Program-made: the position numbers and the translations under genes
In this document: piece after piece, positions 5,936 through 40,303 of the stretch
How the letters are laid out: every line of letters begins with the position of its first letter
How positions within the stretch are numbered: the stretch's first letter is position 1
NCBI GenBank assembly: GCA_964473565.1
Contig: CAYYPI010000003.1
Coordinates: 1,811-65,810, forward strand
From: an uncultured Gammaproteobacteria bacterium
Lineage (GTDB): Bacteria; Patescibacteriota; Patescibacteriia; Patescibacteriales; UBA12465
Direction of reading: 5' to 3'
Length of the DNA stretch: 64,000 bases
Notes under the pieces: model-generated
Databases searched by the model: none
What the model was told of the DNA's origin: nothing
Seen by the model: the letters and a program-made list of their open reading frames with translations, nothing else

Positions 5936-7325
5936 AAATTTTAGTATGAATAATAACTAGAGATAATAAAGATATGATAATCCAAAATAAAGCACTCAGA
6001 TCATTTTTAAAGTAAGGTACATCAACTATTCCATGAATAATGATTGCACTTATTGCTGAGATTATCGATACTATTAATGGCTTGAATTTTGTTTCACACT
6101 TTTCTAATAATCTTTTAGCTTCAATATATATTTTAACAAATAAAAATATAAAGATAAGGAGCCCTAAAAGACCAAGCTCTACCCAGAAGTTTAAAATAAT
6201 ATTGTGAGGATAGAGATATATTTCTAAGGGCTGCCAAACTGATTGTCTAAAATCTTCATTAAATAGAGTTTTTCTAAGCCAGTCAGGATCTTGATAGTCT
6301 TTGATAAATATACCTTCTTGATGATAAGGTCTAATTGCTTCTTGATACTTTAATAAACCAACCCCAGTTAACCAATTATTATTATCTTTTAACATTTCCC
6401 AGGTTTCTTGCCATTGAGAAACTCTAATCTGTCCAGACTTATCTCTAAGTAAAGCTTTTTCTTTTAAGTATGTTTGTGCCTGGGGGTTTAGAGCTAAAAG
6501 CGCAGAACTTATTAGCACTAAAGATATAGCAAAAATTCTAGTTTTTTTATTGTATATAAACAAATAAATAAATATTGAAATAAGGCTAGCTATTAAGGCG
6601 CCTTCTGATTTGGCAAAATACATTGCTAAAAATGAGAGTGATATAATAATGAACAAAAAACTAACAAGTATTTTATTCTTTGTTATTTTTAAATTATTTA
6701 AATAGGAGTTAGCTAAACCTAAAGCTAAAAGGACAACAGGCGCTAAATACAAGCCTATGGCATTAGGATAGGCAAATATTGATGTTACACGTCTAGTTTC
6801 AGCTTGAGCCCAGAATTCATTAAAAATATACAATCCGCTAATTTGTTGGAAAATAGCAACTATTGATATAAAAAAAGCAGATATAGAAAGAGCCCAAACA
6901 ATTTGCTTCCAATCAGATTTTAAATTGAAGTAATTTATTATTAAAATATAAAGCATAACAGGTTCTAGAAAATATGCTTTAAAGACTCCTAGTGCGGATA
7001 GAGAAAAGTCTGAAAAAAAGATAGCTAAGTAAGCTGCAAGCAGGATGGCAAGGATTTCGTATCGAAAGGGATAATTTTGAGATTTATTTAAAGCTTTGTT
7101 ATGTATTTTATTTTTCAATCTTTTTATAATCCTAGGTCCTTTTTGTATAATAAAGAAAGCAAAAGCTATTAAAATTATTGCTTCTAAAAATGTCATAGGA
7201 AGACCTAAAACTTCAAAACGAATTAAATAGCTTGGCAAAGCAAAGATTATAGCTAAAATAGCCAATCTGGGCTTAAAGGCAGTTAAAATACTATAGAAAA
7301 TTAGGCTCAGTATAATTAATGTCAT
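5901..7325 (-). CDS. O-antigen ligase / Wzy-like polytopic membrane protein
   Basis: 474 aa with more than 10 TM spans and a large extracytoplasmic loop, the architecture typical of the Wzy_C/O-antigen ligase family. It overlaps the downstream pseudouridine synthase gene by 35 nt. Confidence 0.6.
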   Translation of the reverse strand: MTLIILSLIFYSILTAFKPRLAILAIIFALPSYLIRFEVLGLPMTFLEAIILIAFAFFIIQKGPRIIKRLKNKIHNKALNKSQNYPFRYEILAILLAAYLAIFFSDFSLSALGVFKAYFLEPVMLYILIINYFNLKSDWKQIVWALSISAFFISIVAIFQQISGLYIFNEFWAQAETRRVTSIFAYPNAIGLYLAPVVLLALGLANSYLNNLKITKNKILVSFLFIIISLSFLAMYFAKSEGALIASLISIFIYLFIYNKKTRIFAISLVLISSALLALNPQAQTYLKEKALLRDKSGQIRVSQWQETWEMLKDNNNWLTGVGLLKYQEAIRPYHQEGIFIKDYQDPDWLRKTLFNEDFRQSVWQPLEIYLYPHNIILNFWVELGLLGLLIFIFLFVKIYIEAKRLLEKCETKFKPLIVSIISAISAIIIHGIVDVPYFKNDLSALFWIIISLLSLVIIHTKIYEQRANHKNNS

Positions 7326-14272: not shown

Positions 14273-17200
14273 TTAGGACTGCTTTTTTAAACAATCCTTT
14301 TTACATAAAGAAGTATACAGAATAGGAACGATTATTAAGTTTAGCAGAGTTGAAAATATTAGACCGAAAATAACAGCTAAGCTAAGACCTCTCCACATTT
14401 CATTTGCATAGATAAGTGGTGCAATACCGGCAATAGTGGTGATAGAGGTAATGAGTATTGGCTGCATACGAGCAATTCCTCCCTCTATTACAGCTTCATT
14501 AAACTCCAAGCCATCTTTAATATTTTTATTAATTCTATCGATTAAAACAATAGCGTCATTTACTACAATACCTGACAGTGAAACTATACCAATAAATACA
14601 GCAATTGAAAATGCTTGTCCAATAGCAAAGAGTCCCAAAATAACACCAATAATTGCTAAGGGTAGAGAGAATAATATTATAAGTGGTTGTTTAAAGGAAT
14701 TAAATTGTAGTATTAGTATAGCCCCAATTAAAAATATTGCAATAATCATGGAGTAAAACATTTCCATATAAGATTTTTCAATATCTTCAGTTTCACCACC
14801 AATTTCTATAGAGCTATTATCAGGTAAATCATATGTTTGTATTTCTTCTTTAAAGTTTTGGGTTATTTCTTGTAAGTTAGCACCTTTTTTAAGTTCAGCA
14901 GTAACAGTAGCTATTTGTTTGCCATTTTTGTGCTCAATTGCTAAAAGTGATGGCTCCAAGTTTAAGTTAGCAACTTGCTTTAAAGGTATTTCTTCGCCTT
15001 TTTGATTAATTATTAAAAGGTTTTTAATATCATCAATGTTAGTAAAATCCTGTTTAGCATATTTAACAATTATTTCTATATCTTCATCATTTAAATTAAC
15101 AGTTGAGGCTGTGGTGCCTGATAAAGCATTTCTAACAGTGCTAGCAATAGATGATGTATTTAATGAGTAGTAACTAGCTTTTTGTCTATCAATAGTAAAG
15201 ACGAATTCTCCGCTTGCGTTACTTAAACTAGTTTCTATGTTAATAGCATTTTCTACGTTTTGAAAATATTTGAGTACCTTCTCGCTATACGTTGAGAGTG
15301 TTTTACTGTTATCTGAAAATATCCTTACCTCTATTGGGGCGCCACTTGGTGGTCCAGCTGCTACTTCATTAACACTAAGTTCTGCTCCTTGAATATCTTT
15401 TATTTCTTCTCTTAAGCTCTCAGCAATAGCAAAGCTTGTTCTTTCTCTTTCATCCTTTTCTGAAACGTTAACAGTGATAGTAGCTTTATTTCTTGAATCA
15501 GATGAAGACATCATGTCAGCACTTATCTCTGTACCAATAGTTGTGACATAATTTTGTAGTTCTGGGATTTCTGCAACTTTTTCTTCCGCTTTTACTGTAA
15601 TTTCTTTAGTTTTTTCAAGACTTGATCCTGTTGGTAGTTCAATGTTTACATAAAAATATTCAAAATCTATTTGAGGAAACATTTGTATGCGCATTAAGCC
15701 GCTAACCGGGATGGCAATAGTGATTAAAAATAAAATCCAAGCACTGACGATAATTGTTCTTCTTTTCTTTTTAGAGGGCAGTATATTGCTAAGTTGTTTT
15801 CTGTATTTAACAGCTAATTTAGACATCTGCTTATTTATATACTGATGTCTTTTTTTATTTCTACCACCACCATTACCATTTGTTTTAACTTTTAGAAATC
15901 TTGTAACTAAAGTAGGGATAATAATTAAGGCAACAAATAAACTAGAAAGCAAAGTTACGATCAATGTTTTAGGGATAATGCTAATATATTCTCCCATAAT
16001 TCCTGACACTAAAAGCATAGGGAAAAAAGCAGATACAGTAGTTAAAGTTCCAGAGGTGATAGCAGCTTTAAAGTTCCAAACAGAAAGTATAGCAGCTTCA
16101 TAAACATTGCGCTTATGTTTTACTACATATTCATTAATACCTTCTATAACTACAATGGCATTGTCTACCATTAAACCTAAAGATAATACTAATGAAAAAA
16201 GAACCATACTGTTTATTGTCATGTCTTGAAGCATTAAGAAGATAAAAGACATTAAAAAAGCAATAGGCACGGCCAAGGCTGTGATTACAGCTCCTCTTAA
16301 ACTAAGTATTGCTAAAAGTATTAAAGCAATAAGAATGAAAGTTTGAATAGCGCTACCTCCTAAGATGCTCAAATCTTCTTTGATATATTTAGAATTATCA
16401 TTAGTCTTTTCAACTTTAATGGTACTAGGTAAAACATTGTTATTTTTTAAAGAAGAGATAGCGTCCTCTGAATTATCTACAATATTTAAAATATTTCCTC
16501 CCACCTTTTTATATACTTGTAGGGAAATAGTATTTTGAGGTTCTTGATTTGGGTAGGCAATTCTTGATTCAGTAGCTTTTTCTTTATAAGTATCTTTAAT
16601 GGTGGCTACATCTTCTAAAAAAACAGGCGAGTCATTGTAGGTGGTAATAACTAAACTATTTAAATCACTAGCTTCTGTAATCTTACCTTTAATTCTTACC
16701 CCATATCTGTATTCATCAATTTCAATAACACCAGCAGGCAGATTAAAGTTGGTATTGCCAATAGCATTAACTATTTGCCCTAGTGATAAATTATAGGTAC
16801 TTAATTTAGTTTCATCTACTATAATTTGAAACTCTCTTTCTAGGCCACCAATAATCTCTACTTTAGAAACATCAGCAACAGACTCTAATTCTTCTTGTAA
16901 TTTATCAGCATATTTTTTTAATTCACTATCACTGTAGTCACCCACTAAAGAGTAAGTAACAATAGGCATATCGCTGAGTCTTATCTCTGTCACTTCCGGA
17001 CTACTAGCATCATTTGGTAGTTTAGGTTTAGCCCTATCTACCGCTTCTCTTAATTTTTGAAAACTGTCTTGTAAATCAGCTTCTGCATCATATTCCACAA
17101 AGACAGAAGAAAAACCTAAGCCAGAAGTAGAGCTGTAATTATTTAGCTTTTCTAAATTTTTTATCTCACTTTCTATTTTGTTTGTAATTAGAGTTTCTGT

Positions 17201-17446
17201 ATCACTAGGACTAGCGCCAGGAAAGGTAGTGGTAATTACTGCGTAGGGTACTTTAACTTCTGGTTGGGCTTCTTTTGGTAGAGTAAAAATAGCAAAAAAA
17301 CCAAAAACAATAATAAGTAGCATTATTAGGTAAGTGAAACGATAATTAGTAATAAAAAAACCAAGCCAAGATTTCTTTTCTTTTTTAAAGGCGTGGTCTA
17401 GTTTTCTTTCTTTCTTTTCTAAGTACTCTTTATTATTAGTGTCCAT
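14273..17446 (-). CDS. RND efflux transporter permease (AcrB/HAE family)
   Basis: 1057 aa with 12 TM spans and two large extracytoplasmic loops. The conserved TM4 region reads SLVLSLGLMVDNAIVVIEG. Confidence 0.9.
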   Translation of the reverse strand: MDTNNKEYLEKKERKLDHAFKKEKKSWLGFFITNYRFTYLIMLLIIVFGFFAIFTLPKEAQPEVKVPYAVITTTFPGASPSDTETLITNKIESEIKNLEKLNNYSSTSGLGFSSVFVEYDAEADLQDSFQKLREAVDRAKPKLPNDASSPEVTEIRLSDMPIVTYSLVGDYSDSELKKYADKLQEELESVADVSKVEIIGGLEREFQIIVDETKLSTYNLSLGQIVNAIGNTNFNLPAGVIEIDEYRYGVRIKGKITEASDLNSLVITTYNDSPVFLEDVATIKDTYKEKATESRIAYPNQEPQNTISLQVYKKVGGNILNIVDNSEDAISSLKNNNVLPSTIKVEKTNDNSKYIKEDLSILGGSAIQTFILIALILLAILSLRGAVITALAVPIAFLMSFIFLMLQDMTINSMVLFSLVLSLGLMVDNAIVVIEGINEYVVKHKRNVYEAAILSVWNFKAAITSGTLTTVSAFFPMLLVSGIMGEYISIIPKTLIVTLLSSLFVALIIIPTLVTRFLKVKTNGNGGGRNKKRHQYINKQMSKLAVKYRKQLSNILPSKKKRRTIIVSAWILFLITIAIPVSGLMRIQMFPQIDFEYFYVNIELPTGSSLEKTKEITVKAEEKVAEIPELQNYVTTIGTEISADMMSSSDSRNKATITVNVSEKDERERTSFAIAESLREEIKDIQGAELSVNEVAAGPPSGAPIEVRIFSDNSKTLSTYSEKVLKYFQNVENAINIETSLSNASGEFVFTIDRQKASYYSLNTSSIASTVRNALSGTTASTVNLNDEDIEIIVKYAKQDFTNIDDIKNLLIINQKGEEIPLKQVANLNLEPSLLAIEHKNGKQIATVTAELKKGANLQEITQNFKEEIQTYDLPDNSSIEIGGETEDIEKSYMEMFYSMIIAIFLIGAILILQFNSFKQPLIILFSLPLAIIGVILGLFAIGQAFSIAVFIGIVSLSGIVVNDAIVLIDRINKNIKDGLEFNEAVIEGGIARMQPILITSITTIAGIAPLIYANEMWRGLSLAVIFGLIFSTLLNLIIVPILYTSLCKKDCLKKQS

Positions 17447-17457
17447 ATTTTAAGCCA

Positions 17458-19269
17458 TTATTTAATTTGAATTAAGGAGTTATTTTCTATAGATTTAGAG
17501 CCACTCATAATTATTTCATCATTAATTCTTAGACCAGACTTTATTTCTACTAAATTAGCTTCACTTTCACCAACACTTACTGCTTGTTTTTTAGCTACTA
17601 GCTGATCATTTTCATTCTTTTTTACTAAATAAACATAGTTTTCTGTTTGTGTTATAATCAGCGCTTCCAAAGGAATCATGATAGCTCCATTTTTAACAGA
17701 TATTTCATTGTTTTTTTTAATTTTTACATCTACAAAAGTGCCTGGAATTAGTTTTCTATCTTTATTGTCTACTAATATTTCTACCTCTACTTTTTTAGTT
17801 TGCTGATTAGCGCTAGGAGCAATGTTTGTAATTTGCGCTTTAATATCTTCATTGATAAGTACTTCTTGCCCTAGATTAACTTTGTATATATCCTCAGATG
17901 GCAAATTAATTGTCACCTTAATCTTTTCAAGCTGGGATATGCTAGCAATAATTTGTCCAGCATTTAGCTCTGCTCCAGTTTCAACATTTTTTGAGGTGAT
18001 TTGCCCAGAAATAGGTGCTGTGATAATTAGATCAGCCAATTGTTCTTGAGATAAGTTTAACTGTCCCAAAGCTGAATCAACCTGTGATTGCGCGGAAAGA
18101 ATTTGTTGTTTTTTGGATTCTTTAGCTGAGTTTAAAGTTACTAAAGCATTATTATATGATATTTCAGCATTGTTAACTTGATTCTTAGCACTTTGGATAT
18201 TATTTTCTAGAGCCAAGCGTTCTTTTGCTTGGGTTAATTCCATGGTGTTTAAGTTGTTTAAACTATTTTCTGCGCTTTGCAGTGAGTTAATTACATTATT
18301 ATATAAGCCAGAGAATTTTTCTTGCTGTGCATTTAAAGCGCTTTGTGGAAATCTAGCGCTTGAGACAGTATTGTCTAAAACAATAATAGTTTCGTTGCTT
18401 AGAGCTTTAGTTTGGCCAAGAAGTTCTATTATTTCTTCTAGTCTTAGTTCAATATATCGACTCTTCACCTGTTTATCTCTTAGATTTTCATAGTTAGCTT
18501 TAGTGCTTCTGTAGCTGTTTTTTGCTTCAACTAAGGCAGAATAACTTTTAGCACTAAGAGTTGCCTCAATATCATCAAGTTGTGGACCTGGTTCAGCATT
18601 AATAATATAGTTTATATCTTCTAAAGTGTCTTTAATTGTTTGTATGTGAGTGCTATATGAAATAACAGCGCTGTTCTTTGCGTCATCTAAGTTTTTTTCT
18701 TGTAAAGCTACAGTGCTTAGATAATTTTCTTGGCTTGACTCTAATGAATCTTTTGCATTACTTATAGCCTCCTGAGCTTGTTTTACGCCAACTTCAGCTT
18801 GTTCAACATTTGATTGTGTAGTTCTTTTCACAGCTTCAAGGTTGCTTAGCATATTATAATAATTAGTTAGAGCGTTTTGATAACCAGTTTTAGTAGAATT
18901 ATTTTTTAAATATACTAAAACTTGACCAGCACTTATTTGGTCTCCTCTATTAAATGAAAGCGATTCAATAGTTCCTTTGGCCAGAGCAGTCACATCTACC
19001 TCTGTTTCAGCTTTTACAGTGCCTACAGTGTCTATATATAGATTGTCTGTACTTGAAGTGGCGCTAGCTATTGTGATAGTTTCTACATTAAAGGCACTCT
19101 CTTTATTAGACGTATTTTCATTATTATCTACTAAAACATTATTAGTATTTTGTTTTTGCAGGGCACTATAAGCGCCATAAGCTAAAATAGCGATAATGAT
19201 AAGACTAGCAGCTACTATAATAATAGCTTTTTTAATGTTTTTTCTTTTTCTATTTGTATTTTCTGTCAT
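17458..19269 (-). CDS. RND/HlyD-family periplasmic adaptor, unusually long
   Basis: 603 aa. Has an N-terminal TM, a lipoyl-like half motif (GDQISAGQVLVYL ... ITAPISGQIT), about 300 aa of coiled coil, and a C-terminal beta-barrel. It lies directly upstream of the RND permease. Confidence 0.75.
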   Translation of the reverse strand: MTENTNRKRKNIKKAIIIVAASLIIIAILAYGAYSALQKQNTNNVLVDNNENTSNKESAFNVETITIASATSSTDNLYIDTVGTVKAETEVDVTALAKGTIESLSFNRGDQISAGQVLVYLKNNSTKTGYQNALTNYYNMLSNLEAVKRTTQSNVEQAEVGVKQAQEAISNAKDSLESSQENYLSTVALQEKNLDDAKNSAVISYSTHIQTIKDTLEDINYIINAEPGPQLDDIEATLSAKSYSALVEAKNSYRSTKANYENLRDKQVKSRYIELRLEEIIELLGQTKALSNETIIVLDNTVSSARFPQSALNAQQEKFSGLYNNVINSLQSAENSLNNLNTMELTQAKERLALENNIQSAKNQVNNAEISYNNALVTLNSAKESKKQQILSAQSQVDSALGQLNLSQEQLADLIITAPISGQITSKNVETGAELNAGQIIASISQLEKIKVTINLPSEDIYKVNLGQEVLINEDIKAQITNIAPSANQQTKKVEVEILVDNKDRKLIPGTFVDVKIKKNNEISVKNGAIMIPLEALIITQTENYVYLVKKNENDQLVAKKQAVSVGESEANLVEIKSGLRINDEIIMSGSKSIENNSLIQIK

Positions 19270-31572: not shown

Positions 31573-34035
31573 ATGGAAAGAAAGTTCATTGAAGTTAAAG
31601 GCGCTAAAGTAAACAATTTAAAAAACTTAAGCATAAAGTTACCTCGCAATAAGTTTATTGTTATTACAGGTTTATCTGGTTCAGGTAAGTCTTCTTTGGC
31701 TTTTGATACTATTTATGCTGAGGGTCAAAGAAGGTATGTCGAATCTTTGTCAGCTTATGCACGTCAATTTATTGATTTAATGGACAAGCCTGATGTTGAA
31801 TCTATCGAGGGTTTGTCACCAGCTATATCCATTGATCAAAAATCTGTTTCACATAATCCTCGCTCTACAGTAGGAACAATTACTGAGATATATGATTATC
31901 TCAGACTTTTATTCGCTAAAATCGGTATTCCTCACTGTCCTTTATGCAATAAAAGATTAGTAAAACATATATCCAAAGATAGTAAGCACAATCCTTCTAT
32001 CTTCTTGGTCTGCAGAGACTGTAATTTTCATATGACTAAGCTTAAGCCTGGATATTTTTCTTTTAATTCATCTCAGGGCTCCTGTTCAAGTTGTAAAGGT
32101 CTTGGTACACGCTTAGAATTAGATCCTGAACTAATTGTTAATGAAAAACTAAGTATTAATCAAGGCGCTATTAGGCCACTTTCTAGATGTAGAGTTTCAG
32201 GCATGAAGGATATGTTAATAGAAATGAAAAAAGCTGCTGAAAAATTTAGTGTTGATTTAAATATGAGTGTAAAGAATCTTAAAAACGATTCTTTAAATAT
32301 TATATTGTATGGAAAAGATTCTTGGGAAGGAGTACTACCTTTTTTGCAAAAAAAATATGAAGAGACAGAGTCTAGATATTTACAAGAAGAATTGGGACAA
32401 TATATGCGAGTTCTACTTTGCTCCACTTGTGATGGTAGGAGATTGAAGCCGGAGTTTTTAGCAGTGAAGATGGCTGGTTATAGTATAGATAAAATAGTGA
32501 ATAAAAACATTACAGATTTGCAGAACTTTTTTAAAGATTTAAGTAAAAGCAATAAAGTTAATGAAAAAGATAAACAAATTTATACCCCAATAGTTAGAGG
32601 GATAATGAATAAGTTGCTACTTTTACAAAATGTTGGTTTAGAATATTTGTCCCTTGATAGAAGTGCCACTACCTTGTCAGGAGGAGAAGCGCAAAGAATT
32701 CGCTTGGCCACACAAGCTGGGTCCTCACTAATAGGGGTGCTTTATATTTTAGACGAACCTTCTATTGGTTTGCACCAAAGAGACAATGGCAAGCTAATTA
32801 AAACTTTGAAAATATTAAAAGAAAAAGGTAATACCGTTATAGTTGTAGAACATGACGAGGCTACTATTTTAGCTGCTGACCATGTTGTAGATGTTGGTCC
32901 TGGGGCGGGTGAGCATGGTGGTGAAATAATATTTGAAGGTAGTCCAGCTCAAATGAAGAAAAGCAGTAAATCTATTACTGGTAAATATTTAGTTGGTAAG
33001 AAAAAAATACCTACACCTTTAAATTATCATAAAGGTAATAAAAAGTTTCTAGAAATATTAGGAGCTAATGAGCATAATTTACAAAATATTGATGTTAAAA
33101 TTCCACTAGGAAAATTTGTTGCTATTACTGGCGTTTCAGGATCTGGTAAATCTACCTTGATGAGTGACATTTTAGCTAAAGCTCTTAGTAAGAAGTTTTA
33201 TCGTGCTAAAACTTTTCCAGGAGAACACAAAGAAATCAAAGGTTTGGAAAATATTGATAAAGTAATTAATATTGATCAATCCCCAATAGGAAGAACTCCT
33301 CGTTCAAATCCTGCTACCTATACCGGAGTCTTTACTCCTATCAGAGAATTATTTGCTGAGCAGGCAGAAGCTAAATTAAAAGGTTTTGATGCTGGGTCTT
33401 TCTCATTTAATGTTCCAGGTGGGCGCTGTGAAAATTGTAGTGGGGACGGATCTATAAAGATTGAAATGCAATTTTTATCAGATGTTTATGTTAAATGCGA
33501 AGTTTGCCAAGGTAAGCGTTATAAAAAGAAAGTTTTAGATATATATTATAGGGATAAAAATATTCATGACATCCTAGAAATGACTGCTGAAGAGGCAATG
33601 AATTTTTTTAGGAACAATTCTACTATTTACCAAAAGGTAAAAGTATTATGTGAAGTAGGTTTAGGTTACATTAAGTTAGGCCAACCAGCTACTACTCTTT
33701 CAGGTGGTGAAGCTCAGAGAATTAAGTTAGCTACAGAGCTATCTAGAAGAGCTACTGGTAAGACTATTTATATTTTAGATGAACCTACCACTGGTTTGCA
33801 CTTTGATGATATTGACAGATTACTTAAGGTTTTAAATAAGTTAGTTGATAAAGGTAATACTATTTTAGTGATAGAACATAATTTAGATATTATTAAATCA
33901 GTAGATTGGATTATTGATTTAGGCCCTGAAGGTGGAGACATGGGTGGAAAAATTGTAGCTGAAGGTACGCCTAAGCAAGTATCTAAAATAAAGAGAAGCT
34001 ATACAGGTCAGTACTTAAAAGATGTTTTAAAATAG
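31573..34035 (+). CDS. uvrA: excinuclease ABC subunit A homolog lacking the UvrB-binding domain (class II-like UvrA)
   Basis: Two ABC modules ([26 protein letters not shown] twice) and zinc modules. It is 820 aa, and only 21 residues separate CPLC (aa 122-125) from CRDC (aa 147-150). Confidence 0.9.
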
Positions 34036-34898: not shown

Positions 34899-35396
34899 TT
34901 ATTTAATAATTTCTAATATCTTTAATTCTATTTTTTTAGTTTCAGTGTCATATAAGGCAAAAGTTGCTTTTTGAAAAAGACCTGCTAAAGTTCCCGGATT
35001 AACTACCCTTGTTTGCCCTCGTTTTTCAATCCAAGGTTTGTGAGTGTGCCCGTAGAAGATAATATCTAAATCAGGTCTTTTTTCAATGAGTTCATGAATA
35101 AAGTGAGGCTCATGACATAGGCCAAACTTAGTGTCTGCTAATGATATAATACCGGTTTCTCCTAAATGATGAGTGTTATTATAATCATGGAAAACTTGCG
35201 GATCATAGAGTTCTGCGTTTCCAGAGATAATATAAATATTTTTATTAAAATCTTTAGCTAGTTTTCTAGCGCTTTCTTCATTTGTTAAATCGCCTGTGCA
35301 AAAAATAACATTAACATCATTGTTGTTAGCCCAGTTTATAAATTTATTTAAATTTACTAGATTGTCATGAATATCAGAGATAATAGCTATCTTCAT
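34899..35396 (-). CDS. YfcE/MJ0936-family metallophosphoesterase
   Basis: MKIAIISDIHDN, CTGDL, GNAE and GHTH motifs. 165 aa. Confidence 0.85.
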   Translation of the reverse strand: MKIAIISDIHDNLVNLNKFINWANNNDVNVIFCTGDLTNEESARKLAKDFNKNIYIISGNAELYDPQVFHDYNNTHHLGETGIISLADTKFGLCHEPHFIHELIEKRPDLDIIFYGHTHKPWIEKRGQTRVVNPGTLAGLFQKATFALYDTETKKIELKILEIIK

Positions 35397-35416: not shown

Positions 35417-35986
35417 TTATTGTCTAATACTAATATCGTAATTAACTTGTTCAATTTTTTTTAAGTGTCCTCTAGCTTGATCGTATTTTGTTCTTAAGTA
35501 ACCCGTAAAATCAAATTCAGTTAATGAGGCTAAGAGTTCAGAAGCATCTTCACTAGCCCTTGTTACCTCTTTAGTGTTATGCTTAGCTGCCTGGTTAGTG
35601 CAAAACCTTGCCATCTCTCCTATTAAATCAGATATAGCACCTAAATATGATTCATGACTTAATTTTAGATTTTTCAATTTTTCAATTTTATGTTTAGTTA
35701 GCCATTGCCAAAAAAGATGTGCTTCTAAAAATTCTTCAATAGCTGCTTTATATGAACCTTCTTGCTCTAAGCGAGCAGCACCTAAATTTTTTTGTAATTT
35801 TTTGATATCCTCCTCTAATTTTTTTAAATCATTTTCAGCCTTATTGTAATCTTGTCTATGTAAAGAAAAAATAATTCTTTTTGAGTCATGTAAAATAGGA
35901 TTACTAGATTTAATTATTTTACTCCTTTCTTTATTTTTTTCGACATGATCTTTTTTAAGTTTTTGAACAAATGATTTTTTTATCAT
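35417..35986 (-). CDS. translin/TRAX-family protein
   Basis: The C-terminus LRTKYDQARGHLKKIEQVNYDISIR aligns by eye with human translin LRKRYDGLKYDVKKVEEVVYDLSIR. The central YLGAISDLIGEMAR resembles the TRAX DLTGEL motif. Confidence 0.75.
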   Translation of the reverse strand: MIKKSFVQKLKKDHVEKNKERSKIIKSSNPILHDSKRIIFSLHRQDYNKAENDLKKLEEDIKKLQKNLGAARLEQEGSYKAAIEEFLEAHLFWQWLTKHKIEKLKNLKLSHESYLGAISDLIGEMARFCTNQAAKHNTKEVTRASEDASELLASLTEFDFTGYLRTKYDQARGHLKKIEQVNYDISIRQ

Positions 35987-36020: not shown

Positions 36021-39000
36021 TTATCTTAGCGACCTAAAAGCTTCATCTAAAGTGGTGTAACCTTTTAGTGCCTTAATAACACCGTCTTGAAGTATAGTCA
36101 CTGTACCTGCTTTTACAGCTAATTCTTCTATTTCATAATCAATAACTTCTTTACTTTGAATGGCTTTTCTAATTTCACTAGAAACTTCCATAACTTCATA
36201 AATACCGATTCTTCCTTTGTAGCCTAAACTATTACATTGTGGACAACCTTTACCTTGATAAAATTTAAGTTCACTTGGTATTTCAACTTTAGCTTTGTCG
36301 CTAATAGAATCTAAAACTTCTCTAACTTCATTTAATTGTTCTTCACTGATTTTAATTTCTTCTTTACAATGAGGACAAATCCTTCTAGCTAATCTTTGTC
36401 CAATTGAAGCCTCTAGAGCATTAGCAAGGAGTTGTCTAGGTACATTTAGACCACTTAAACGACTAACTGCGCTAGCTGCGCTATTAGCATGTAAAGTAGA
36501 GAGAACTAAATGACCAGTGGTAGCAGCTTCAATAGCTATGTTAGCTGTTTCTTCATCTCTAATTTCTCCCACCATCATGATGTTAGGGTTTTGGCGAAGT
36601 AAAGATTTCATAGCTGAAGCAAAAGTATAGCCTTGATCAGCATCAATTTGTGTTTGCATGAGTCCAGGCATTTGGTATTCAATAGGATCTTCAACAGTAA
36701 TAATTTTAACATCTGGACTGTTTAATTTATTTAGAGCAGAGTATAAAGTAGTAGTTTTACCAGAACCGGTAGGCCCAGTAGTAATTATAATACCCTTAGT
36801 TTTAGAAATTGACCTTGTTAAAGGTTCTAGGCTGTATTTTTCCATGCCCAATTCTTTAAGGTCAAGACTTTGAGCTTGAGAGGCTAGAAGACGAATTACA
36901 ATAGTTTCACCATAACCTCCTGAGATGATAGAAACACGACTGTCAGCTCGTTTAGTGGGCATTTTAATGCTAAAACGACCATCAATTGTCGCTTTCTTAA
37001 CATTAGTAGCTACACCAATAAGAATTTTAACCTTTGATAACAGTGGTAAATAATGATCTTTAGCTAAATCAACCACATCATGCAATACGCCATCTATTCT
37101 AAAACGTACTTTCACGCTAGTTTCAGTTGGTTCGATATGAATATCTCCAGCATCAGCCTGTATAGCCATAGCAACAATTATTTTTAGTACTTTTTGTACA
37201 GATACATTTTTAAAACTAGTATTTATATTAACTAAATCTTGACTTAGCTCTTTAGCTTCATCAAGTTCTTCTTGATTAATTTTTATACCTCTACCAATAG
37301 TTTGGCTAATAACAATATCATATAATTCATCCACGTAGTCGGTATTACCAATTACTCTATAGATCTCTTCTAAACTAGTTTTACCTTCTATAGCTTTTAA
37401 AACTCCATCTTGAAGCATGGTAATCATGCCATTTTCAATAGCTTGTTGCAAAATTTTAAAAGAAGCAGCTTCTTTTATAACTAAGTCTTTAATTTTGTCA
37501 TCTAGCGTGAATATTTCATAAATACCAACTCTTCCTTTATAGCCTATAAAGTTACACTTATCACAACCTTCTGGGTTGGGTTTAAATAATTTAGGTATTT
37601 CAGTAGGAACGTCAAGATTTGATTTTGGTGAGATTACAGCAAGTATTTTCTTAAGTTTTTCATTCTCCTCTTCAGCTGGTTGATATTCTGTTTTACATTC
37701 ATTACACAATTTTCTAACTAATCTTTGACCAATAACAGCGTTAATTGAGGGAACTAAGAAATATGGTTTTACACCCATGTCTATTAAACGAGGTATAACA
37801 CCTGAGGCATCATTAGTGTGCAAGGTGGATAAAACTAAGTGACCAGTTAAACTAGCTTGTACGGAAATTTCAGCTGTATCAAGATCGCGAATTTCTCCTA
37901 CCATAACAATATCTGGATCTTGCCTCAAGACTGAACGTAGTCCATTAGCAAAAGTATATTCTTTTTTTCTGTTAATTTGACTTTGATTAATTCCTTCTAA
38001 TTGATACTCAATCGGGTCTTCTAAGGTGATAATTTTTGTTCCTGGTTGATTTAATTTATTTAAAATAGAGTATAAAGTAGTGGTTTTACCTGAACCTGTA
38101 GGACCAGTTGTTAGTATTAGACCGTTAGGTTTTTTAATTTCTTCTTTTAATATGTTATAGGCTTCATCTCTAAGACCTAACTCCTCAAATCCTAATTGAA
38201 TAGATTCAGATCTTAAAATTCTCATAACCACACTTTCTCCAAAGGCTGTAGGTAAAAAGGAAGCACGCACATCAATTTGTTCATTAGGTAGATAAATTTT
38301 AAAACGACCATCTTGTGGTGCGCCTTCAATATTAATTTTTACACCTGCTAAAAGTTTTAAACGGGAAATAATTTTTTTCCATTGTTCCTTTTTAATAGTA
38401 GCAGCCTCTTGCAAAACACCATCAATTCTTAGTCTCACAACTACTCCTTTGTCCTCAGCTTCAATATGTACATCACTGACATCAACCTTAATAGCAGTAG
38501 CTAAAATAAGAGTAACAATATCAGTAATATTCACTTGATTTATTTTTTCAGCAAGCTTTTTGTAATCAGTGATTTCATTTTTAAACTTTTCTAAATCTTT
38601 AGCTGGAATTTCCACTCCACTATCATACTTTTTTATTTTAGGAATAGCTTTATATACTTCTAAGGCATATTCAAAACTATGTCGAGATATTAAGTATATT
38701 CTACTGTTAGTAAAATATTTAGCATCAAGTTCTTTTTGTATTTCTTTAGCAGCTTTAGCTTCTGGATCAGTGGTGGCTATACGAATGTTTTCTCCATCAT
38801 AATAAAAGCAAATAACTTCTTTTTCTTTAGCTACTTTTTCATCTATTAAAACAATTGCATCAGGGCTTATAGGAAAAGCAAATAGATTAACATACTTTAG
38901 GCCAGCTTCTTCAGCTTTAGCCATAGTTTGTTCTTCCATTTCTTTTATTTTAATTTCTTCTTGTTTTTTTGCTAATTTTCCTTGAATAGTATCTTCGTCT

Positions 39001-39050
39001 TGAACATCATCAGAATTAATCAAGTTATTAATGGAGTTATAGGTAGACAT
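36021..39050 (-). CDS. tandem-duplicated type II/IV secretion ATPase (two complete PilB/GspE modules in one polypeptide)
   Basis: 1009 aa. Module 1 (aa 1-568) has a GspE N-terminal domain, Walker A GPTGSGKT at aa 316, IVMVGEIRD, TGHLVLSTLH, and CNEC..CDKC. Module 2 (aa 569-1009) has Walker A at aa 759, IMMVGEIRD, TGHLVLSTLH, and CPHC..CPQC. Confidence 0.9.
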   Translation of the reverse strand: MSTYNSINNLINSDDVQDEDTIQGKLAKKQEEIKIKEMEEQTMAKAEEAGLKYVNLFAFPISPDAIVLIDEKVAKEKEVICFYYDGENIRIATTDPEAKAAKEIQKELDAKYFTNSRIYLISRHSFEYALEVYKAIPKIKKYDSGVEIPAKDLEKFKNEITDYKKLAEKINQVNITDIVTLILATAIKVDVSDVHIEAEDKGVVVRLRIDGVLQEAATIKKEQWKKIISRLKLLAGVKINIEGAPQDGRFKIYLPNEQIDVRASFLPTAFGESVVMRILRSESIQLGFEELGLRDEAYNILKEEIKKPNGLILTTGPTGSGKTTTLYSILNKLNQPGTKIITLEDPIEYQLEGINQSQINRKKEYTFANGLRSVLRQDPDIVMVGEIRDLDTAEISVQASLTGHLVLSTLHTNDASGVIPRLIDMGVKPYFLVPSINAVIGQRLVRKLCNECKTEYQPAEEENEKLKKILAVISPKSNLDVPTEIPKLFKPNPEGCDKCNFIGYKGRVGIYEIFTLDDKIKDLVIKEAASFKILQQAIENGMITMLQDGVLKAIEGKTSLEEIYRVIGNTDYVDELYDIVISQTIGRGIKINQEELDEAKELSQDLVNINTSFKNVSVQKVLKIIVAMAIQADAGDIHIEPTETSVKVRFRIDGVLHDVVDLAKDHYLPLLSKVKILIGVATNVKKATIDGRFSIKMPTKRADSRVSIISGGYGETIVIRLLASQAQSLDLKELGMEKYSLEPLTRSISKTKGIIITTGPTGSGKTTTLYSALNKLNSPDVKIITVEDPIEYQMPGLMQTQIDADQGYTFASAMKSLLRQNPNIMMVGEIRDEETANIAIEAATTGHLVLSTLHANSAASAVSRLSGLNVPRQLLANALEASIGQRLARRICPHCKEEIKISEEQLNEVREVLDSISDKAKVEIPSELKFYQGKGCPQCNSLGYKGRIGIYEVMEVSSEIRKAIQSKEVIDYEIEELAVKAGTVTILQDGVIKALKGYTTLDEAFRSLR

Positions 39051-39068
39051 AATAAGTGTATAATTATT

Positions 39069-39113
39069 AAATTGCTATATAATTTATATAGTTTTTGTAT
39101 TATATAGCAATTT
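39069..39113. repeat. perfect 15-bp inverted repeat with 15-nt spacer upstream of the tandem ATPase gene
   Basis: AAATTGCTATATAAT (39069-39083) and ATTATATAGCAATTT (39099-39113) are exact reverse complements. Confidence 0.85.
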
Positions 39114-39128
39114 AAAAATAATAAGGAA

Positions 39129-40142
39129 TTATTTTTTAGTTTTCTTCTTTTTTCTAGTATTTTTAGTATTTTTACCTTTTTCTTTATCATTTAATCTTTT
39201 TATCTTACTTACAGCCTTTCGATCAAGTAATTCCAAGAAAAGTTTTGTCCATGAATTAATTAAGAAAGCTGTTAACATAGAGCCAAGCCAAATTACGGCT
39301 AATATCAAAAGAGTAAAGCCTATAAATGTAATTAACCAGAAGATTGTAAAATTAGCAAAAATAATACTTAGAATCACAAAAGGGGCAGCTATAGCAAACA
39401 TAGCTACTAGTATCATTATACCTACAATTATATTTATTAACATCAAAATAAAAGCCATTTCTAAACTGATAACCCAATTTTTAGAAAATAAATTTACAGC
39501 ATTATTAATTGCTTCTATAAATTTATTCTTTTTTATCACAATATAAGCAATTGCATATTTTGCTATTAGAGATAAACCTATTACCACGGGAATAAAAATT
39601 AAAAATAAGATGGTATAGACAATAATTGATACCCAAGAGATGGAAGAGGTTAAAATAATAGGTAGAGAAATTAAGAAAAATATAGAAGCAATAAGTACCT
39701 TAACTAATATGTTAACACCTAGAACTGGCCAAAAATGTGATTGTCCTACTAACATCCCTTTACTGATACCTAAATCTTTTTTTTCGTTATTATATAATTT
39801 TTTGGCTTGATCAACTAAAGCAGCTTGTGAGCTAATTGTTAAAATAACTAAAAATATAAATATAGCTAGAGCTAGAATTAAGAAAATAACACTAATTAAA
39901 GCATCTCTAGGATTCTCTGCAAAGTAAGGGCCAATGTTTGTCCATAGTTCTGGGTTAAAAATTGCAAAAAAACGACCTATTGCGTTTAAGGTTGTTCCCC
40001 CATTATTTTCAACGATATTATTTATAATTTGATACTCACCACCAGCACCTAAGAAAGTAGCAAATAAACCAAAGAACCAGAGATATTTGTTGTGCCAAGT
40101 AATGTTTAGTGATTGTCTTAAGATTTTACGATAAGAAAACAT
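39129..40142 (-). CDS. polytopic membrane protein of unknown function with a poly-Lys C-terminus
   Basis: 337 aa with about 7 TM spans. C-terminal KEKGKNTKNTRKKKKTKK. No family recognised with confidence. Confidence 0.5.
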   Translation of the reverse strand: MFSYRKILRQSLNITWHNKYLWFFGLFATFLGAGGEYQIINNIVENNGGTTLNAIGRFFAIFNPELWTNIGPYFAENPRDALISVIFLILALAIFIFLVILTISSQAALVDQAKKLYNNEKKDLGISKGMLVGQSHFWPVLGVNILVKVLIASIFFLISLPIILTSSISWVSIIVYTILFLIFIPVVIGLSLIAKYAIAYIVIKKNKFIEAINNAVNLFSKNWVISLEMAFILMLINIIVGIMILVAMFAIAAPFVILSIIFANFTIFWLITFIGFTLLILAVIWLGSMLTAFLINSWTKLFLELLDRKAVSKIKRLNDKEKGKNTKNTRKKKKTKK

Positions 40143-40303
40143 AAAATTTAAATTAATATAGCTAAAAAGCCTTTGTTAGTTAATGATTTGTATATATAAT
40201 TATACCACAGGAGACAATAGTTGCCAATTTAATAATTTTTATATAATTGCTAAATAAAATTAAATAATATACAATAAAAATACTAATATACAAGCAATAT
40301 ACT

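What the first reader, a model, noticed from the sequence alone, without database searches (positions are those of the whole stretch)
36021..39050. Covalent tandem of two complete PilB/GspE secretion ATPase modules in one 1009-aa protein
Seen in sequence: both halves retain every catalytic signature. These are Walker A GPTGSGKTTTLYS (aa 316 and 759), the Asp box, Walker B (IVMVGEIRD and IMMVGEIRD), the His box TGHLVLSTLH in both, and the tetracysteine zinc motif in both (CNEC..CDKC and CPHC..CPQC). Only module 1 has the GspE N-terminal domain. Module 2 begins with an N2-like domain around aa 610. Established knowledge: these ATPases normally work as homohexamers of ~400-600-aa subunits, and solved PilB/PilT-family hexamers adopt two-fold symmetric conformations. 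Inference: a fused dimer would assemble as a trimer of pseudo-dimers, fixing alternating subunit identities and allowing the halves to specialise. No pilC, pilM, pilT or pilin gene lies nearby in this window. The flanking genes are an orphan 7-TM protein upstream and a translin-like gene downstream.
Basis: partly seen in the sequence, partly recalled or inferred. Interest (0 to 1): 0.7.

Follow-up and report, generated by a model that had tools for sequence, protein, structure and literature searches.

The report
Natural tandem PilB-type ATPase, orphan paralog
This Patescibacteria gene really does encode two complete, apparently active pilus-motor ATPase units joined in one protein, and it belongs to a previously undescribed "orphan" branch of these motors that exists alongside the normal pilus operon, so it offers a natural single-chain version of a ring motor whose mechanism is still debated.

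Summary
Window 36021-39050 (-) is one 1009-aa ORF: one N1 domain followed by two N2+CTD ATPase modules. The modules are 43% identical (E 2e-128), and each keeps its Walker A/B, Asp box, His box, arginine fingers and Cys4 zinc site.

It is not an artefact. More than 120 protein clusters and 50 of the 80 best-matching species-genome loci carry the same uninterrupted roughly 1000-aa gene, with a conserved linker.

New findings:
1. The protein belongs to an orphan clade of PilB-like ATPases, separate from operon-encoded Patescibacteria PilBs. One Moranbacteria contig carries both a full pilM-N-O-B-T-C-pilin operon and the tandem gene.
2. Single-module members occupy the same syntenic slot, so the tandem arose inside this clade.
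3. Tandem duplication happened independently at least three more times.
4. Module 1 stays canonical. Module 2 evolves faster and has replaced near-invariant residues (for example RQDPD to RQNPN).
5. A DUF7544-like polytopic membrane protein is the constant upstream partner in the window's lineage; RuvB follows the gene in another lineage.

A trimer forming a six-module ring is the most likely assembly, but this is untested. I found no literature describing it. It is a new variant of a known kind.

The parts
36021..39050 (-). Tandem PilB/GspE-family ATPase, 1009 aa plus stop: N1 - (N2D-CTD) - linker - (N2D-CTD)
   Evidence: Single ORF. Pfam T2SSE x2. Full-length homologs of 63-100% identity in >120 clusters.
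38646..38933 (-). N1 (T2SSE_N / MshEN-like) domain, aa ~40-135; present once only
   Evidence: PF05157 at aa 50-102, 23.3 bits against cut-off 23.1. Alpha/beta secondary structure with pLDDT 80-90.
38181..38618 (-). Module 1 N2 domain, aa 145-290 (Arg fingers R206/R208, PQDGR249)
   Evidence: Module HMM envelope 145-567. Residues conserved.
37353..38180 (-). Module 1 C-terminal ATPase domain, aa 291-566 (Walker A 316, Asp box 340, Walker B 381, His box 402, Cys4 449/452/496/499)
   Evidence: Best PDB sequence match is PilB, E 8e-109.
37290..37352 (-). Conserved inter-module linker, aa 567-587 (GNTDYVDELYDIVISQTIGRG). It resembles aa ~125-148, the N1-N2 connector of module 1.
   Evidence: Mean column conservation 0.87, higher than either N2 domain. 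The motif G-[DE]-x-x-Y-[IV]-E-x-[LM]-Y...R-G is shared by distant members and absent from the independently duplicated P0127/P0129. Predicted helix 571-583 with low pLDDT.
36852..37289 (-). Module 2 N2 domain, aa 588-733 (R649/R651, IDGR692). It carries the module-2 substitutions S->G635, Q->I689 and P->S710.
36024..36851 (-). Module 2 C-terminal ATPase domain, aa 734-1009 (Walker A 759, Asp box 783, Walker B 824, His box 845, Cys4 892/895/936/939). RQDPD is changed to RQNPN (N821).
   Evidence: Best PDB sequence matches are GspE/PilF/PilB, E ~1e-89.
39129..40142 (-). Conserved upstream partner: a 337-aa polytopic membrane protein (about 6-7 hydrophobic segments). Relatives weakly match DUF7544.
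   Evidence: Immediately upstream on the same strand in all 27 group-A fused loci, gaps 0-119 nt. Also upstream of the single-module orphan ATPases in L094 and L061. DUF7544 hit in 7 of 14 members, best E 5.8e-5.
39059..39123 (.). AT-rich inverted repeat (17-bp perfect stem, 15-nt loop) in the 78-nt gap between the membrane-protein gene and the ATPase start
   Evidence: I1. RNA fold -17.7 kcal/mol, z = -5.5, 0 of 200 shuffles as stable. Function untested.
40199..40227 (-). Best sigma-70-like promoter match (TTGGCA-17-TATAAT with TG, 11/12) upstream of the membrane-protein gene; a possible start of a five-gene minus-strand operon
   Evidence: This is a consensus match only; the total number of matches in the region does not exceed the shuffles.
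35417..35986 (-). Translin-family protein (189 aa), conserved immediately downstream
   Evidence: PF01997, E 1.1e-26. At +1/+2 in 26 fused loci, and in L059 next to a single-module ATPase.
34899..35396 (-). Calcineurin-like metallophosphoesterase (165 aa), conserved at +2
   Evidence: PF12850, E 9e-28. Present in 28 fused loci.

Best explanation
Shown. The gene encodes a real, conserved PilB/GspE-family (extension-type) type IV filament ATPase. Its ring-forming unit (N2 domain plus RecA-like C-terminal domain with a zinc site) has been duplicated in tandem behind a single N1 domain. Both units keep all residues needed to bind and hydrolyse ATP. The protein belongs to an orphan paralog clade of Patescibacteria PilB-like ATPases. 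This clade is encoded among housekeeping and DNA-repair genes, away from pilC, pilT, pilM and pilin genes. It coexists with a canonical pilus operon that has its own single-module PilB. It occurs in both single-module and tandem forms in the same syntenic slot. Module 1 has remained canonical, while module 2 evolves faster and has replaced several otherwise near-invariant residues.

Inferred. Three chains assemble into one six-module ring in which modules 1 and 2 alternate. This gives three N1 domains, two non-equivalent interface types (intra-chain and inter-chain) and three-fold rather than two-fold sequence symmetry. The ring works as an ATP-driven membrane-associated motor. It either shares the PilC/PilM platform of the canonical pilus machine in trans, or docks on the conserved DUF7544-like polytopic membrane protein encoded directly upstream.
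For: - Real and conserved: the top 120 homolog clusters are all 992-1013 aa with 98-100% coverage, from NCBI, JGI, ENA and Logan assemblies. Of the 80 best genome loci, 50 carry an uninterrupted two-module ORF.
- Both modules look active: in 26 representatives below 70% identity, Walker A Lys, both Asp-box Glu, Walker B Glu, both His-box His, R208/R376 and the zinc cysteines are 96-100% retained in each module.
- Extension type: the best solved relatives are PilB, PilF and GspE, and PilT is far weaker.
- Orphan clade: operon-encoded PilBs form one clade (bootstrap 81). All fused modules plus the syntenic singles form the sister clade (bootstrap 76).
- Context: PilC lies within the flanks of 20 of 27 single-module loci but only 2 of 56 fused loci, and in those two it is never adjacent or co-oriented.
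- Coexistence: L095 carries pilM, pilN-like, pilO, pilB (592 aa), a response regulator, pilT, pilC and three pilins, with the 1008-aa tandem gene convergent on the other strand. That operon's PilB is closer to operon PilBs of other lineages (0.51-0.54) than to the tandem modules of its own genome (0.45, 0.39).
- Same slot in single-module form: L059, L061, P0138, P0142 and P0156.
- Asymmetry: module 1 is more conserved in 310 of 325 representative pairs. D378->N occurs in 21 of 26 module 2 sequences, against D in 89 of 91 single PilBs.
- Recurrence: in P0127, P0129 and P0135 the two modules are sisters (bootstrap 97-99, 100 and 74).
- Membrane partner.
Against: - No oligomer could be modelled. 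AlphaFold monomer models give pTM 0.48 (full length) and 0.61 (CTD1-linker-N2D2), so they do not define how the modules pack.
- Deep nodes of the neighbour-joining trees are weakly supported. The monophyly of module 2 has only 33-58% bootstrap.
- Coexistence with a canonical operon was shown directly in one Moranbacteria genome, not in the window's own Falkowbacteria-like lineage.
- No experimental data exist for any member.
- The membrane-protein partnership is confined to one sub-lineage. Group B has a DHH protein upstream instead.
Confidence: 0.6

Rival explanations
1. Stacked double ring. Six chains assemble so that the six module-1 units form one homohexameric ring and the six module-2 units form a second ring stacked on it, as in tandem-ATPase machines such as KaiC or p97/NSF. 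The two rings would do different jobs.
For: Tandem P-loop ATPases often form stacked rings (own knowledge). The roughly 50-residue connection between the end of CTD1 and the first N2D2 helix (helices 571-583 and 593-604) is long enough for either geometry. Each module keeps its self-compatible interface residues. AlphaFold does not predict a confident side-by-side packing.
Against: Only one N1 domain is present per chain, and it sits on module 1. In PilB-type rings one face must contact the membrane platform, so a second stacked ring would be occluded (inference). Module 2 has changed N2-domain residues that are invariant in homohexameric PilBs (S->G, loss of Q in PQDGR, loss of P in LPT). That is easier to explain if its N2 domain now packs against a different partner. 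No stacked PilB/PilT ring appears among the solved structures retrieved.
Confidence: 0.2
2. Not a pilus-assembly motor. The orphan clade, single and tandem, has been recruited to a different membrane process together with the DUF7544-like polytopic protein, or to DNA uptake and recombination, given its recurrent neighbours translin, RuvB, RuvC, UvrA, PolA and a DHH phosphoesterase.
For: The gene is never encoded next to pilC, pilM or pilins. It coexists with a complete operon that already has a PilB. The membrane partner is conserved with 0-20 nt gaps in many loci and predates the duplication. RuvB is directly downstream in about 17 loci, and again after the single-module P0156. RuvC follows in L007, and translin and UvrA occur in group A. 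In Saccharibacteria TM7x a second pilus locus includes recAX (PMC12206443).
Against: The full PilB architecture, including N1 and the zinc site, is retained. That architecture is what docks on PilM/PilC-type partners in known systems (own knowledge). Small Patescibacteria genomes are rich in housekeeping and repair genes, so the neighbourhood may be inherited synteny rather than function. No statistical test was made. The membrane partner is absent in group B.
Confidence: 0.15
3. Artefact: two ordinary adjacent pilB-like genes joined by an assembly or sequencing error, or by a missed stop codon.
For: None found. One related MAG (L032) has a broken ORF whose tblastn match length of 3022 nt is not a multiple of three.
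Against: The ORF is uninterrupted in 56 non-redundant loci and >120 protein clusters from four independent data sources and many assemblers. The linker is among the most conserved segments. The linker contains no Met in the query or in the relatives read. DNA similarity between the halves is too low to mis-assemble.
Confidence: 0.01
4. Module 2 is a catalytically dead regulatory or scaffolding copy (a pseudo-ATPase).
For: Module 2 evolves faster and has lost several residues that are near-invariant in single PilBs (D378->N, Q246, P267, S192). An unrelated double protein, P0135, has lost a Walker A lysine, although in its first module.
Against: In module 2 the Walker A Lys, Asp-box Glu residues, Walker B Glu and Asp, both His, the Arg fingers R651 and R692, R819 and the zinc cysteines are 96-100% conserved across 26 diverse representatives.
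Confidence: 0.04

Closest known systems
PilB type IVa pilus extension ATPase (e.g. Geobacter metallireducens 5TSH/6OLJ, Myxococcus xanthus 3JC8)
   Same: Each module matches at 41-45% identity with TM-score 0.87-0.92 to the target chain. It has the same N2D + CTD + Cys4 zinc architecture and the same Walker A/B, Asp and His boxes. An N1 domain sits at the N-terminus.
   Different: There are two ATPase modules per chain instead of one. The gene is not encoded with pilC, pilM, pilT or pilins. It belongs to a separate paralog clade. Each module scores below the NCBIfam PilB equivalog cut-off (490 and 408 bits against 676).
Operon-encoded single-module PilB of Patescibacteria (e.g. L095 6460-8238; L065-L089)
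   Same: Same phylum and same domain set (MshEN + T2SSE). It is present in the same genome in at least one case.
   Different: It lies in a pilM-N-O-B-T-C-pilin operon. It forms a distinct clade (bootstrap 81). It is only 39-45% identical to the tandem modules of its own genome.
Single-module members of the same orphan clade (L059, L061, P0136, P0138, P0142, P0156)
   Same: Same syntenic slots (membrane protein -> ATPase -> translin; TsaE/DHH -> ATPase -> RuvB -> bPH). They are 54-55% identical to module 1.
   Different: One module only, 556-584 aa. They represent either the ancestral state or a secondary loss of module 2.
Thermus thermophilus PilF (6F8L, 913 aa)
   Same: A PilB-family ATPase made unusually long by internal duplication.
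   Different: In PilF the repeated part is the N-terminal GSPII/T2SSE_N domain, and there is one ATPase module. Here the ATPase module itself is duplicated and N1 is single.
PilT4 hexamers in the C3 'ocococ' conformation (6OJY, 6OK2)
   Same: A ring of this ATPase family with alternating open and closed interfaces. This is the symmetry an alternating module1/module2 ring would have by sequence (listed; the mapping is an inference).
   Different: PilT4 is a homohexamer of a retraction ATPase lacking N1 and the zinc site. Its alternation is conformational, not genetic.
Engineered covalently linked ring ATPases (single-chain ClpX; own knowledge, not retrieved here)
   Same: Covalent linkage of neighbouring subunits fixes their positions and allows position-specific mutation.
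   Different: Those constructs are artificial and from the AAA+ family. This one is natural, conserved and has asymmetrically diverged.

Membership tests
PilB/GspE-type secretion ATPase superfamily (Pfam T2SSE, PF00437) | T2SSE domain (N2D + RecA-like CTD) above the gathering score | tested here: met
   771.5 bits against cut-off 24.9, in two stretches
PilB/GspE-type secretion ATPase superfamily (Pfam T2SSE, PF00437) | Walker A, Asp box, Walker B and His box intact | tested here: met
   Present in both modules of the query. Retained at 96-100% in both modules of 26 diverse family representatives.
Extension-type subgroup (PilB/GspE as opposed to PilT) | Tetracysteine zinc-binding insertion in the CTD | tested here: met
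   CxxC...CxxC in both modules. The cysteines are 96-100% conserved (the fourth-cysteine column was mis-registered in that table, but it is invariant: C499 and C939).
Extension-type subgroup (PilB/GspE as opposed to PilT) | N-terminal T2SSE_N/MshEN (N1) domain | tested here: met
   PF05157 at aa 50-102, 23.3 bits against cut-off 23.1 (marginal), and once only. Relatives also hit it.
Extension-type subgroup (PilB/GspE as opposed to PilT) | Closer to solved PilB/PilF/GspE than to PilT | tested here: met
   E 1e-109 to 1e-84 for PilB/GspE/PilF, against about 1e-33 for PilT. Foldseek ranks the same way.
Extension-type subgroup (PilB/GspE as opposed to PilT) | One ATPase module per polypeptide, assembling as a homohexamer | tested here: not met
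   There are two modules per chain. The oligomeric state is not testable with these tools.
Type IV-A pilus assembly ATPase PilB (NCBIfam TIGR02538 equivalog) | Score above the equivalog cut-off (675.65 bits) | tested here: not met
   The full length scores 887 only because two modules are summed. Module 1 with N1 scores 490.3 and module 2 scores 408.5. A canonical Patescibacteria operon PilB also falls short (524.8), so the cut-off is strict for this phylum.
Type IV-A pilus assembly ATPase PilB (NCBIfam TIGR02538 equivalog) | Encoded with pilC, pilM/N/O, pilT and pilin genes | tested here: not met
   None in the 64-kb window. PilC lies within the flanks of 2 of 56 fused loci, never adjacent or co-oriented, against 20 of 27 single-module loci.
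Type IV-A pilus assembly ATPase PilB (NCBIfam TIGR02538 equivalog) | Required for pilus extension | not testable with these tools
   No experimental data exist for any member. The organisms are uncultivated.
Type II secretion ATPase GspE (TIGR02533 equivalog) | Score above the cut-off (630.25) and linkage to gspF/gspL and other T2SS genes | tested here: not met
   The modules score 500.6 and 429.0. No T2SS genes are nearby.
PilT/PilU retraction ATPases (TIGR01420) | Score above 319.1; no N1 domain and no zinc site | tested here: not met
   The modules score 180 and 157 bits. N1 and Cys4 are present.
Competence ATPase ComGA (NF041000) | Score above 300 | tested here: not met
   The modules score 254.2 and 225.9 bits.
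Orphan PilB-like clade of Patescibacteria (defined here) | Groups apart from operon PilBs and is encoded in the housekeeping slot (membrane protein/DHH upstream; translin/RuvB downstream) | tested here: met
   Sister clades with bootstrap 76 and 81 in a neighbour-joining tree. Synteny. Coexistence with a canonical operon.

The most novel reading that the evidence does not exclude
The orphan clade, in its single and tandem forms, is not an accessory pilus motor. It is the engine of an undescribed membrane machine of Patescibacteria. In this reading a PilB-derived ring docks on the conserved DUF7544-like polytopic membrane protein instead of PilC and serves DNA uptake or processing, which would explain the recurrent translin, RuvB, RuvC, UvrA, PolA and DHH neighbours. 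Repeated tandem fusion has turned the ring into an obligate three-fold asymmetric motor.
Probability: 0.15. Interest if true: 0.85.

Novelty: new variant of a known kind. Interest (0 to 1): 0.6.

Why it matters
PilB-type ATPases are the universal motors of type IV pili, type II secretion and competence pili. How six identical subunits coordinate ATP hydrolysis to lift pilins is still argued from symmetric crystal and cryo-EM states.

A natural, conserved single-chain dimer fixes subunit identity around the ring. Walker mutations could then be placed in exactly alternating positions without engineering linkers. Its three-fold sequence symmetry also tests whether the two-fold rotary model is obligatory.

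The finding also shows that many Patescibacteria carry a second, separately encoded PilB-like motor beside their canonical pilus operon. These organisms are thought to depend on pili for attachment to hosts and for DNA uptake. This second motor has its own membrane-protein partner in one lineage and has been tandemly duplicated at least four times. Recurrence of that kind suggests a selective advantage of fusion, not an accident.

Tried and rejected
1. Assembly or read-through artefact: rejected.
2. A degenerate half: rejected for the main family.
3. Inter-module packing from AlphaFold: the full-length model (pTM 0.48) and a CTD1-linker-N2D2 construct (pTM 0.61 with a shallow 20-sequence alignment) were both inconclusive. 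Model coordinates are not exposed to scripts, so contacts could not be measured.
5. The AFDB fold search, meant to show how UniProt describes such proteins, was unavailable because the library is not installed.
6. The first Biopython tree run timed out and was redone with numpy distances.
7. My initial claim of '0 of 56 fused loci near pilus genes' was corrected to 2 of 56 after a PilC-profile scan. That correction led to the informative locus L095.
8. Matching contig lengths between PilC hits and fused-gene contigs found only the one known match, 58,506 bp. Coexistence was therefore not extended to the window's own lineage.
10. Six literature searches and three papers read found no description of a tandem PilB. 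Absence from this library is not proof of absence.
11. c-di-GMP-binding MshEN motif in N1: none seen by eye in aa 1-50; not formally tested.
12. The upstream membrane protein as a PilC homolog: rejected. It has no T2SSF hit and only weak DUF7544 matches.


Full report
**Observation**

Window 36021-39050 (minus strand) is one uninterrupted 1009-aa ORF.
- Walker A at aa 316 and 759
- Asp box at 340 and 783
- Walker B at 381 and 824
- His box at 402 and 845
- CxxC pairs at 449/496 and 892/936

The two halves align over 422 residues (aa 145-565 with 588-1006) at 43% identity, E = 2e-128. Pfam finds T2SSE twice and one marginal N-terminal T2SSE_N/MshEN domain. Each half is closest to solved PilB, PilF and GspE chains (E 1e-109 to 1e-84), and PilT is far weaker. 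By Foldseek, no solved chain covers more than one module: about 395 aligned columns, with TM-score 0.87-0.92 relative to the target. The window has about 30% G+C, and the protein's database names point to Parcubacteria/Falkowbacteria within Patescibacteria.

**Not an artefact**

The 120 best homolog clusters in a 5.8-billion-protein collection are all 992-1013 aa with 98-100% coverage and 63-100% identity. They come from NCBI, JGI, ENA and Logan assemblies. In one-genome-per-species contigs, 50 of the 80 best loci carry an uninterrupted two-module ORF. Their record titles name Falkowbacteria, Buchananbacteria, Moranbacteria/Moraniibacteriota, Paceibacterota and 'Parcubacteria group'.

The 21-residue linker (GNTDYVDELYDIVISQTIGRG) is more conserved than either N2 domain (0.87 mean column identity). 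Its motif recurs in members only about 40% identical. DNA similarity between the halves is low: the best repeat is 193 nt at 72% identity with 1329-nt spacing. One related MAG (L032) has a probable frameshift.

**Both modules look catalytically competent, but they are not equivalent**

I compared 26 representatives below 70% identity. Walker A Lys, both Asp-box Glu, Walker B Glu, both His-box His, R208/R651, R376/R819 and the zinc cysteines are retained at 96-100% in both modules.

Module 1 keeps every residue that is at least 85% conserved in 91 single-module PilBs. Module 2 has replaced several of them:
- D378->N821 (RQDPD becomes RQNPN) in 21 of 26 representatives, against D in 89 of 91 singles
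- S192->G in 16 of 26
- the Q of PQDGR lost in 18 of 26
- the P of LPT lost in 17 of 26

Module 1 is the more conserved copy in 310 of 325 representative pairs. This fits sub-functionalisation of module 2, especially of its N2 domain.

**Evolution**

An exhaustive phmmer search of 1.84 billion representatives gave 57,402 hits. Among the best 150 there were 13 full-length two-module clusters (39-64% identity), fragments of others, and a distinct 1047-aa protein, P0135.

In neighbour-joining trees of the modules, the second modules of the main family group together. Support is weak overall (33-58%), but sub-clades reach 76-100%. First modules group with various single-module proteins.

In P0127, P0129 and P0135 the two modules of one protein are sisters, with bootstrap 97-99, 100 and 74 and intra-protein identity 53%, 71% and 43%. 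P0127 and P0129 also lack the main family's linker motif. The tandem architecture therefore arose at least four times.

**It is an orphan paralog, not the operon PilB**

No T2SSF/PilC, PilM/N/O, PilT, prepilin peptidase or pilin is present anywhere in the 64-kb window.

Across 56 non-redundant fused loci there are two synteny groups:
- Group A (27 loci, including the window's lineage): polytopic membrane protein -> ATPase -> translin -> metallophosphoesterase, with UvrA nearby.
- Group B (about 17 loci, mostly Moranbacteria): DHH protein -> ATPase -> RuvB -> small membrane protein -> bPH_2 protein.

By contrast, 20 of 27 single-module Patescibacteria loci show PilB followed by PilC within one to three genes, often with PilT, pilins and PilD. 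A PilC profile found hits in only 2 of the 56 fused loci, and neither is adjacent or co-oriented with the ATPase.

One of those two, extended as L095, is decisive. A single 21-kb stretch of a Moranbacteria genome encodes PilM, a PilN-like protein, PilO, a 592-aa PilB, a response regulator, PilT, PilC and three pilins on one strand. On the other strand, convergent, it encodes the 1008-aa tandem ATPase followed by RuvB and bPH_2. That operon's PilB is closer to operon PilBs of other lineages (51-54% identity) than to the tandem modules of its own genome (45% and 39%).

In a tree rooted on non-Patescibacteria PilBs, operon PilBs form one clade (bootstrap 81). All tandem modules plus the top single-module hits form its sister clade (bootstrap 76).

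**The orphan clade also exists in single-module form in the same slots**

- L061: membrane protein -> 576-aa ATPase
- L059: 567-aa ATPase -> translin -> ... -> metallophosphoesterase, with UvrA on the opposite strand
- P0142: membrane protein -> ATPase
- P0138: TsaE, DHH -> ATPase
- P0156: PolA, TsaE ... ATPase -> RuvB -> small protein -> bPH_2 -> LTD -> YebC -> RuvC

A profile of the membrane protein matches the upstream genes of L094 (E 8e-64) and L061 (E 3e-40). The membrane-protein/ATPase pair therefore predates the duplication. Seven of 14 members of that membrane protein family weakly match DUF7544, and none matches T2SSF.

**How it probably works (inference)**

The duplicated unit is exactly the ring-forming unit of PilB (N2D + CTD, plus the N1-N2 connector). 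I therefore favour three chains forming one six-module ring with alternating modules, three N1 domains and two kinds of interface. In such a ring the opposite positions hold different modules, so the sequence symmetry is three-fold. Among solved relatives, the alternating C3 'ocococ' state of PilT4 matches this better than the C2 'ccocco' state of PilB (both are listed).

A stacked two-ring assembly from six chains cannot be excluded. AlphaFold monomer models are confident within domains (mean pLDDT 78-82) but not about domain arrangement (pTM 0.48 and 0.61).

The partner of the motor is also unresolved. It could act in trans on the canonical PilC/PilM platform, as an accessory extension ATPase. 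It could instead use the DUF7544-like membrane protein. Or it could serve a DNA-related process suggested by its neighbours.

**Comparison with what is known**

By NCBIfam, the full-length protein passes the PilB and GspE equivalog cut-offs only because two modules are summed (887 and 917 bits). Separately, the modules score 490/500 and 408/429 bits against cut-offs of 676/630. They are also below the ComGA and PilT cut-offs. Public annotation calls these proteins 'GspE/PulE family protein' without noting the duplication.

Six full-text searches and three papers on Patescibacteria pili turned up no description of a tandem PilB. Those papers do report that pilB, pilT, pilC and pilM are widespread and co-localised in this group (PMC6744442, PMC12206443).

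**Verdict**

This is a new variant of a known kind: a natural, recurrent, asymmetrically diverged tandem PilB-type ATPase from an undescribed orphan clade. Interest is moderate to high at 0.6.

Noticed in passing
window 39059-39123: A 17-bp perfect AT-rich hairpin (TTAAATTGCTATATAAT-N15-ATTATATAGCAATTTAA) sits in the 78-nt gap between the membrane-protein gene and the ATPase start codon. The RNA fold has z = -5.5, with 0 of 200 shuffles as stable. It could be an operator palindrome, an attenuator or a processing/stability element. No obvious Shine-Dalgarno sequence precedes the ATG.
   Followed up: partly
window 35417-35986 (-); also L001, L003, L005, L059 and others: A bacterial translin-family protein (PF01997, E 1e-26) is conserved immediately downstream of the ATPase in 26 loci, and also next to a single-module orphan ATPase. 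From my own knowledge, translin is mainly a eukaryotic and archaeal nucleic-acid-binding protein. Its role here is unknown.
   Followed up: partly
L090 8001-11144 (P0135); L091: An unrelated high-G+C bacterium (neighbours: sulfatase, ECF sigma, MoxR/BatA) encodes a 1047-aa protein with two soluble T2SSF (PilC/GspF-like) domains fused to two T2SSE modules. The first Walker A has lost its lysine (GPTGSGTTT). This is an independent tandem with a platform-like domain attached.
   Followed up: partly
P0129 (L009 3226-6213) and P0127: These are independently and more recently duplicated tandem ATPases within the same orphan clade. The two modules are 71% and 53% identical and are sisters in the tree, and the linkers are short and unrelated to the main family's. 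P0129 sits next to TsaE and PolA, like group B.
   Followed up: partly
L007, L008, L034-L054, L093, L095; window 31573-34035: DNA repair and recombination genes recur beside the orphan ATPase in different synteny groups. RuvB is directly downstream in about 17 loci. RuvC, YebC, PolA, UvrD, a DHH phosphoesterase and UvrA also occur. This was not tested against the background gene content of these small genomes.
   Followed up: partly
L095 8262-8651: In the canonical Moranbacteria pilus operon, a stand-alone response-regulator receiver protein (129 aa) is encoded between pilB and pilT.
   Followed up: no
window 31573-34035 (+): The UvrA here is 820 aa, and the cluster median across relatives is 819 aa. 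The syntenic UvrA in L059 is 938 aa. The shorter form appears to lack about 120 residues relative to the longer one.
   Followed up: no
window 14273-19269 (-): An AcrB/RND-family transporter (1057 aa) lies next to a HlyD-type membrane-fusion protein (603 aa). The organism is expected to lack an outer membrane, and no TolC-like gene was seen among the annotated ORFs.
   Followed up: no
L032 6001-9022: One group-A MAG has the tandem gene broken: the ORF restarts at 6797, and the tblastn match length of 3022 nt is not a multiple of three. This is probably an assembly frameshift or a pseudogene, and it is the only such case among about 57 loci.
   Followed up: no
L034-L054 group B, +2 to +4 of the ATPase: A small membrane protein of about 75-86 aa and a 198-aa membrane protein with a bacterial PH domain (bPH_2, E 1.3e-5) consistently follow RuvB downstream of the tandem ATPase. 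The same pair follows the single-module P0156.
   Followed up: no
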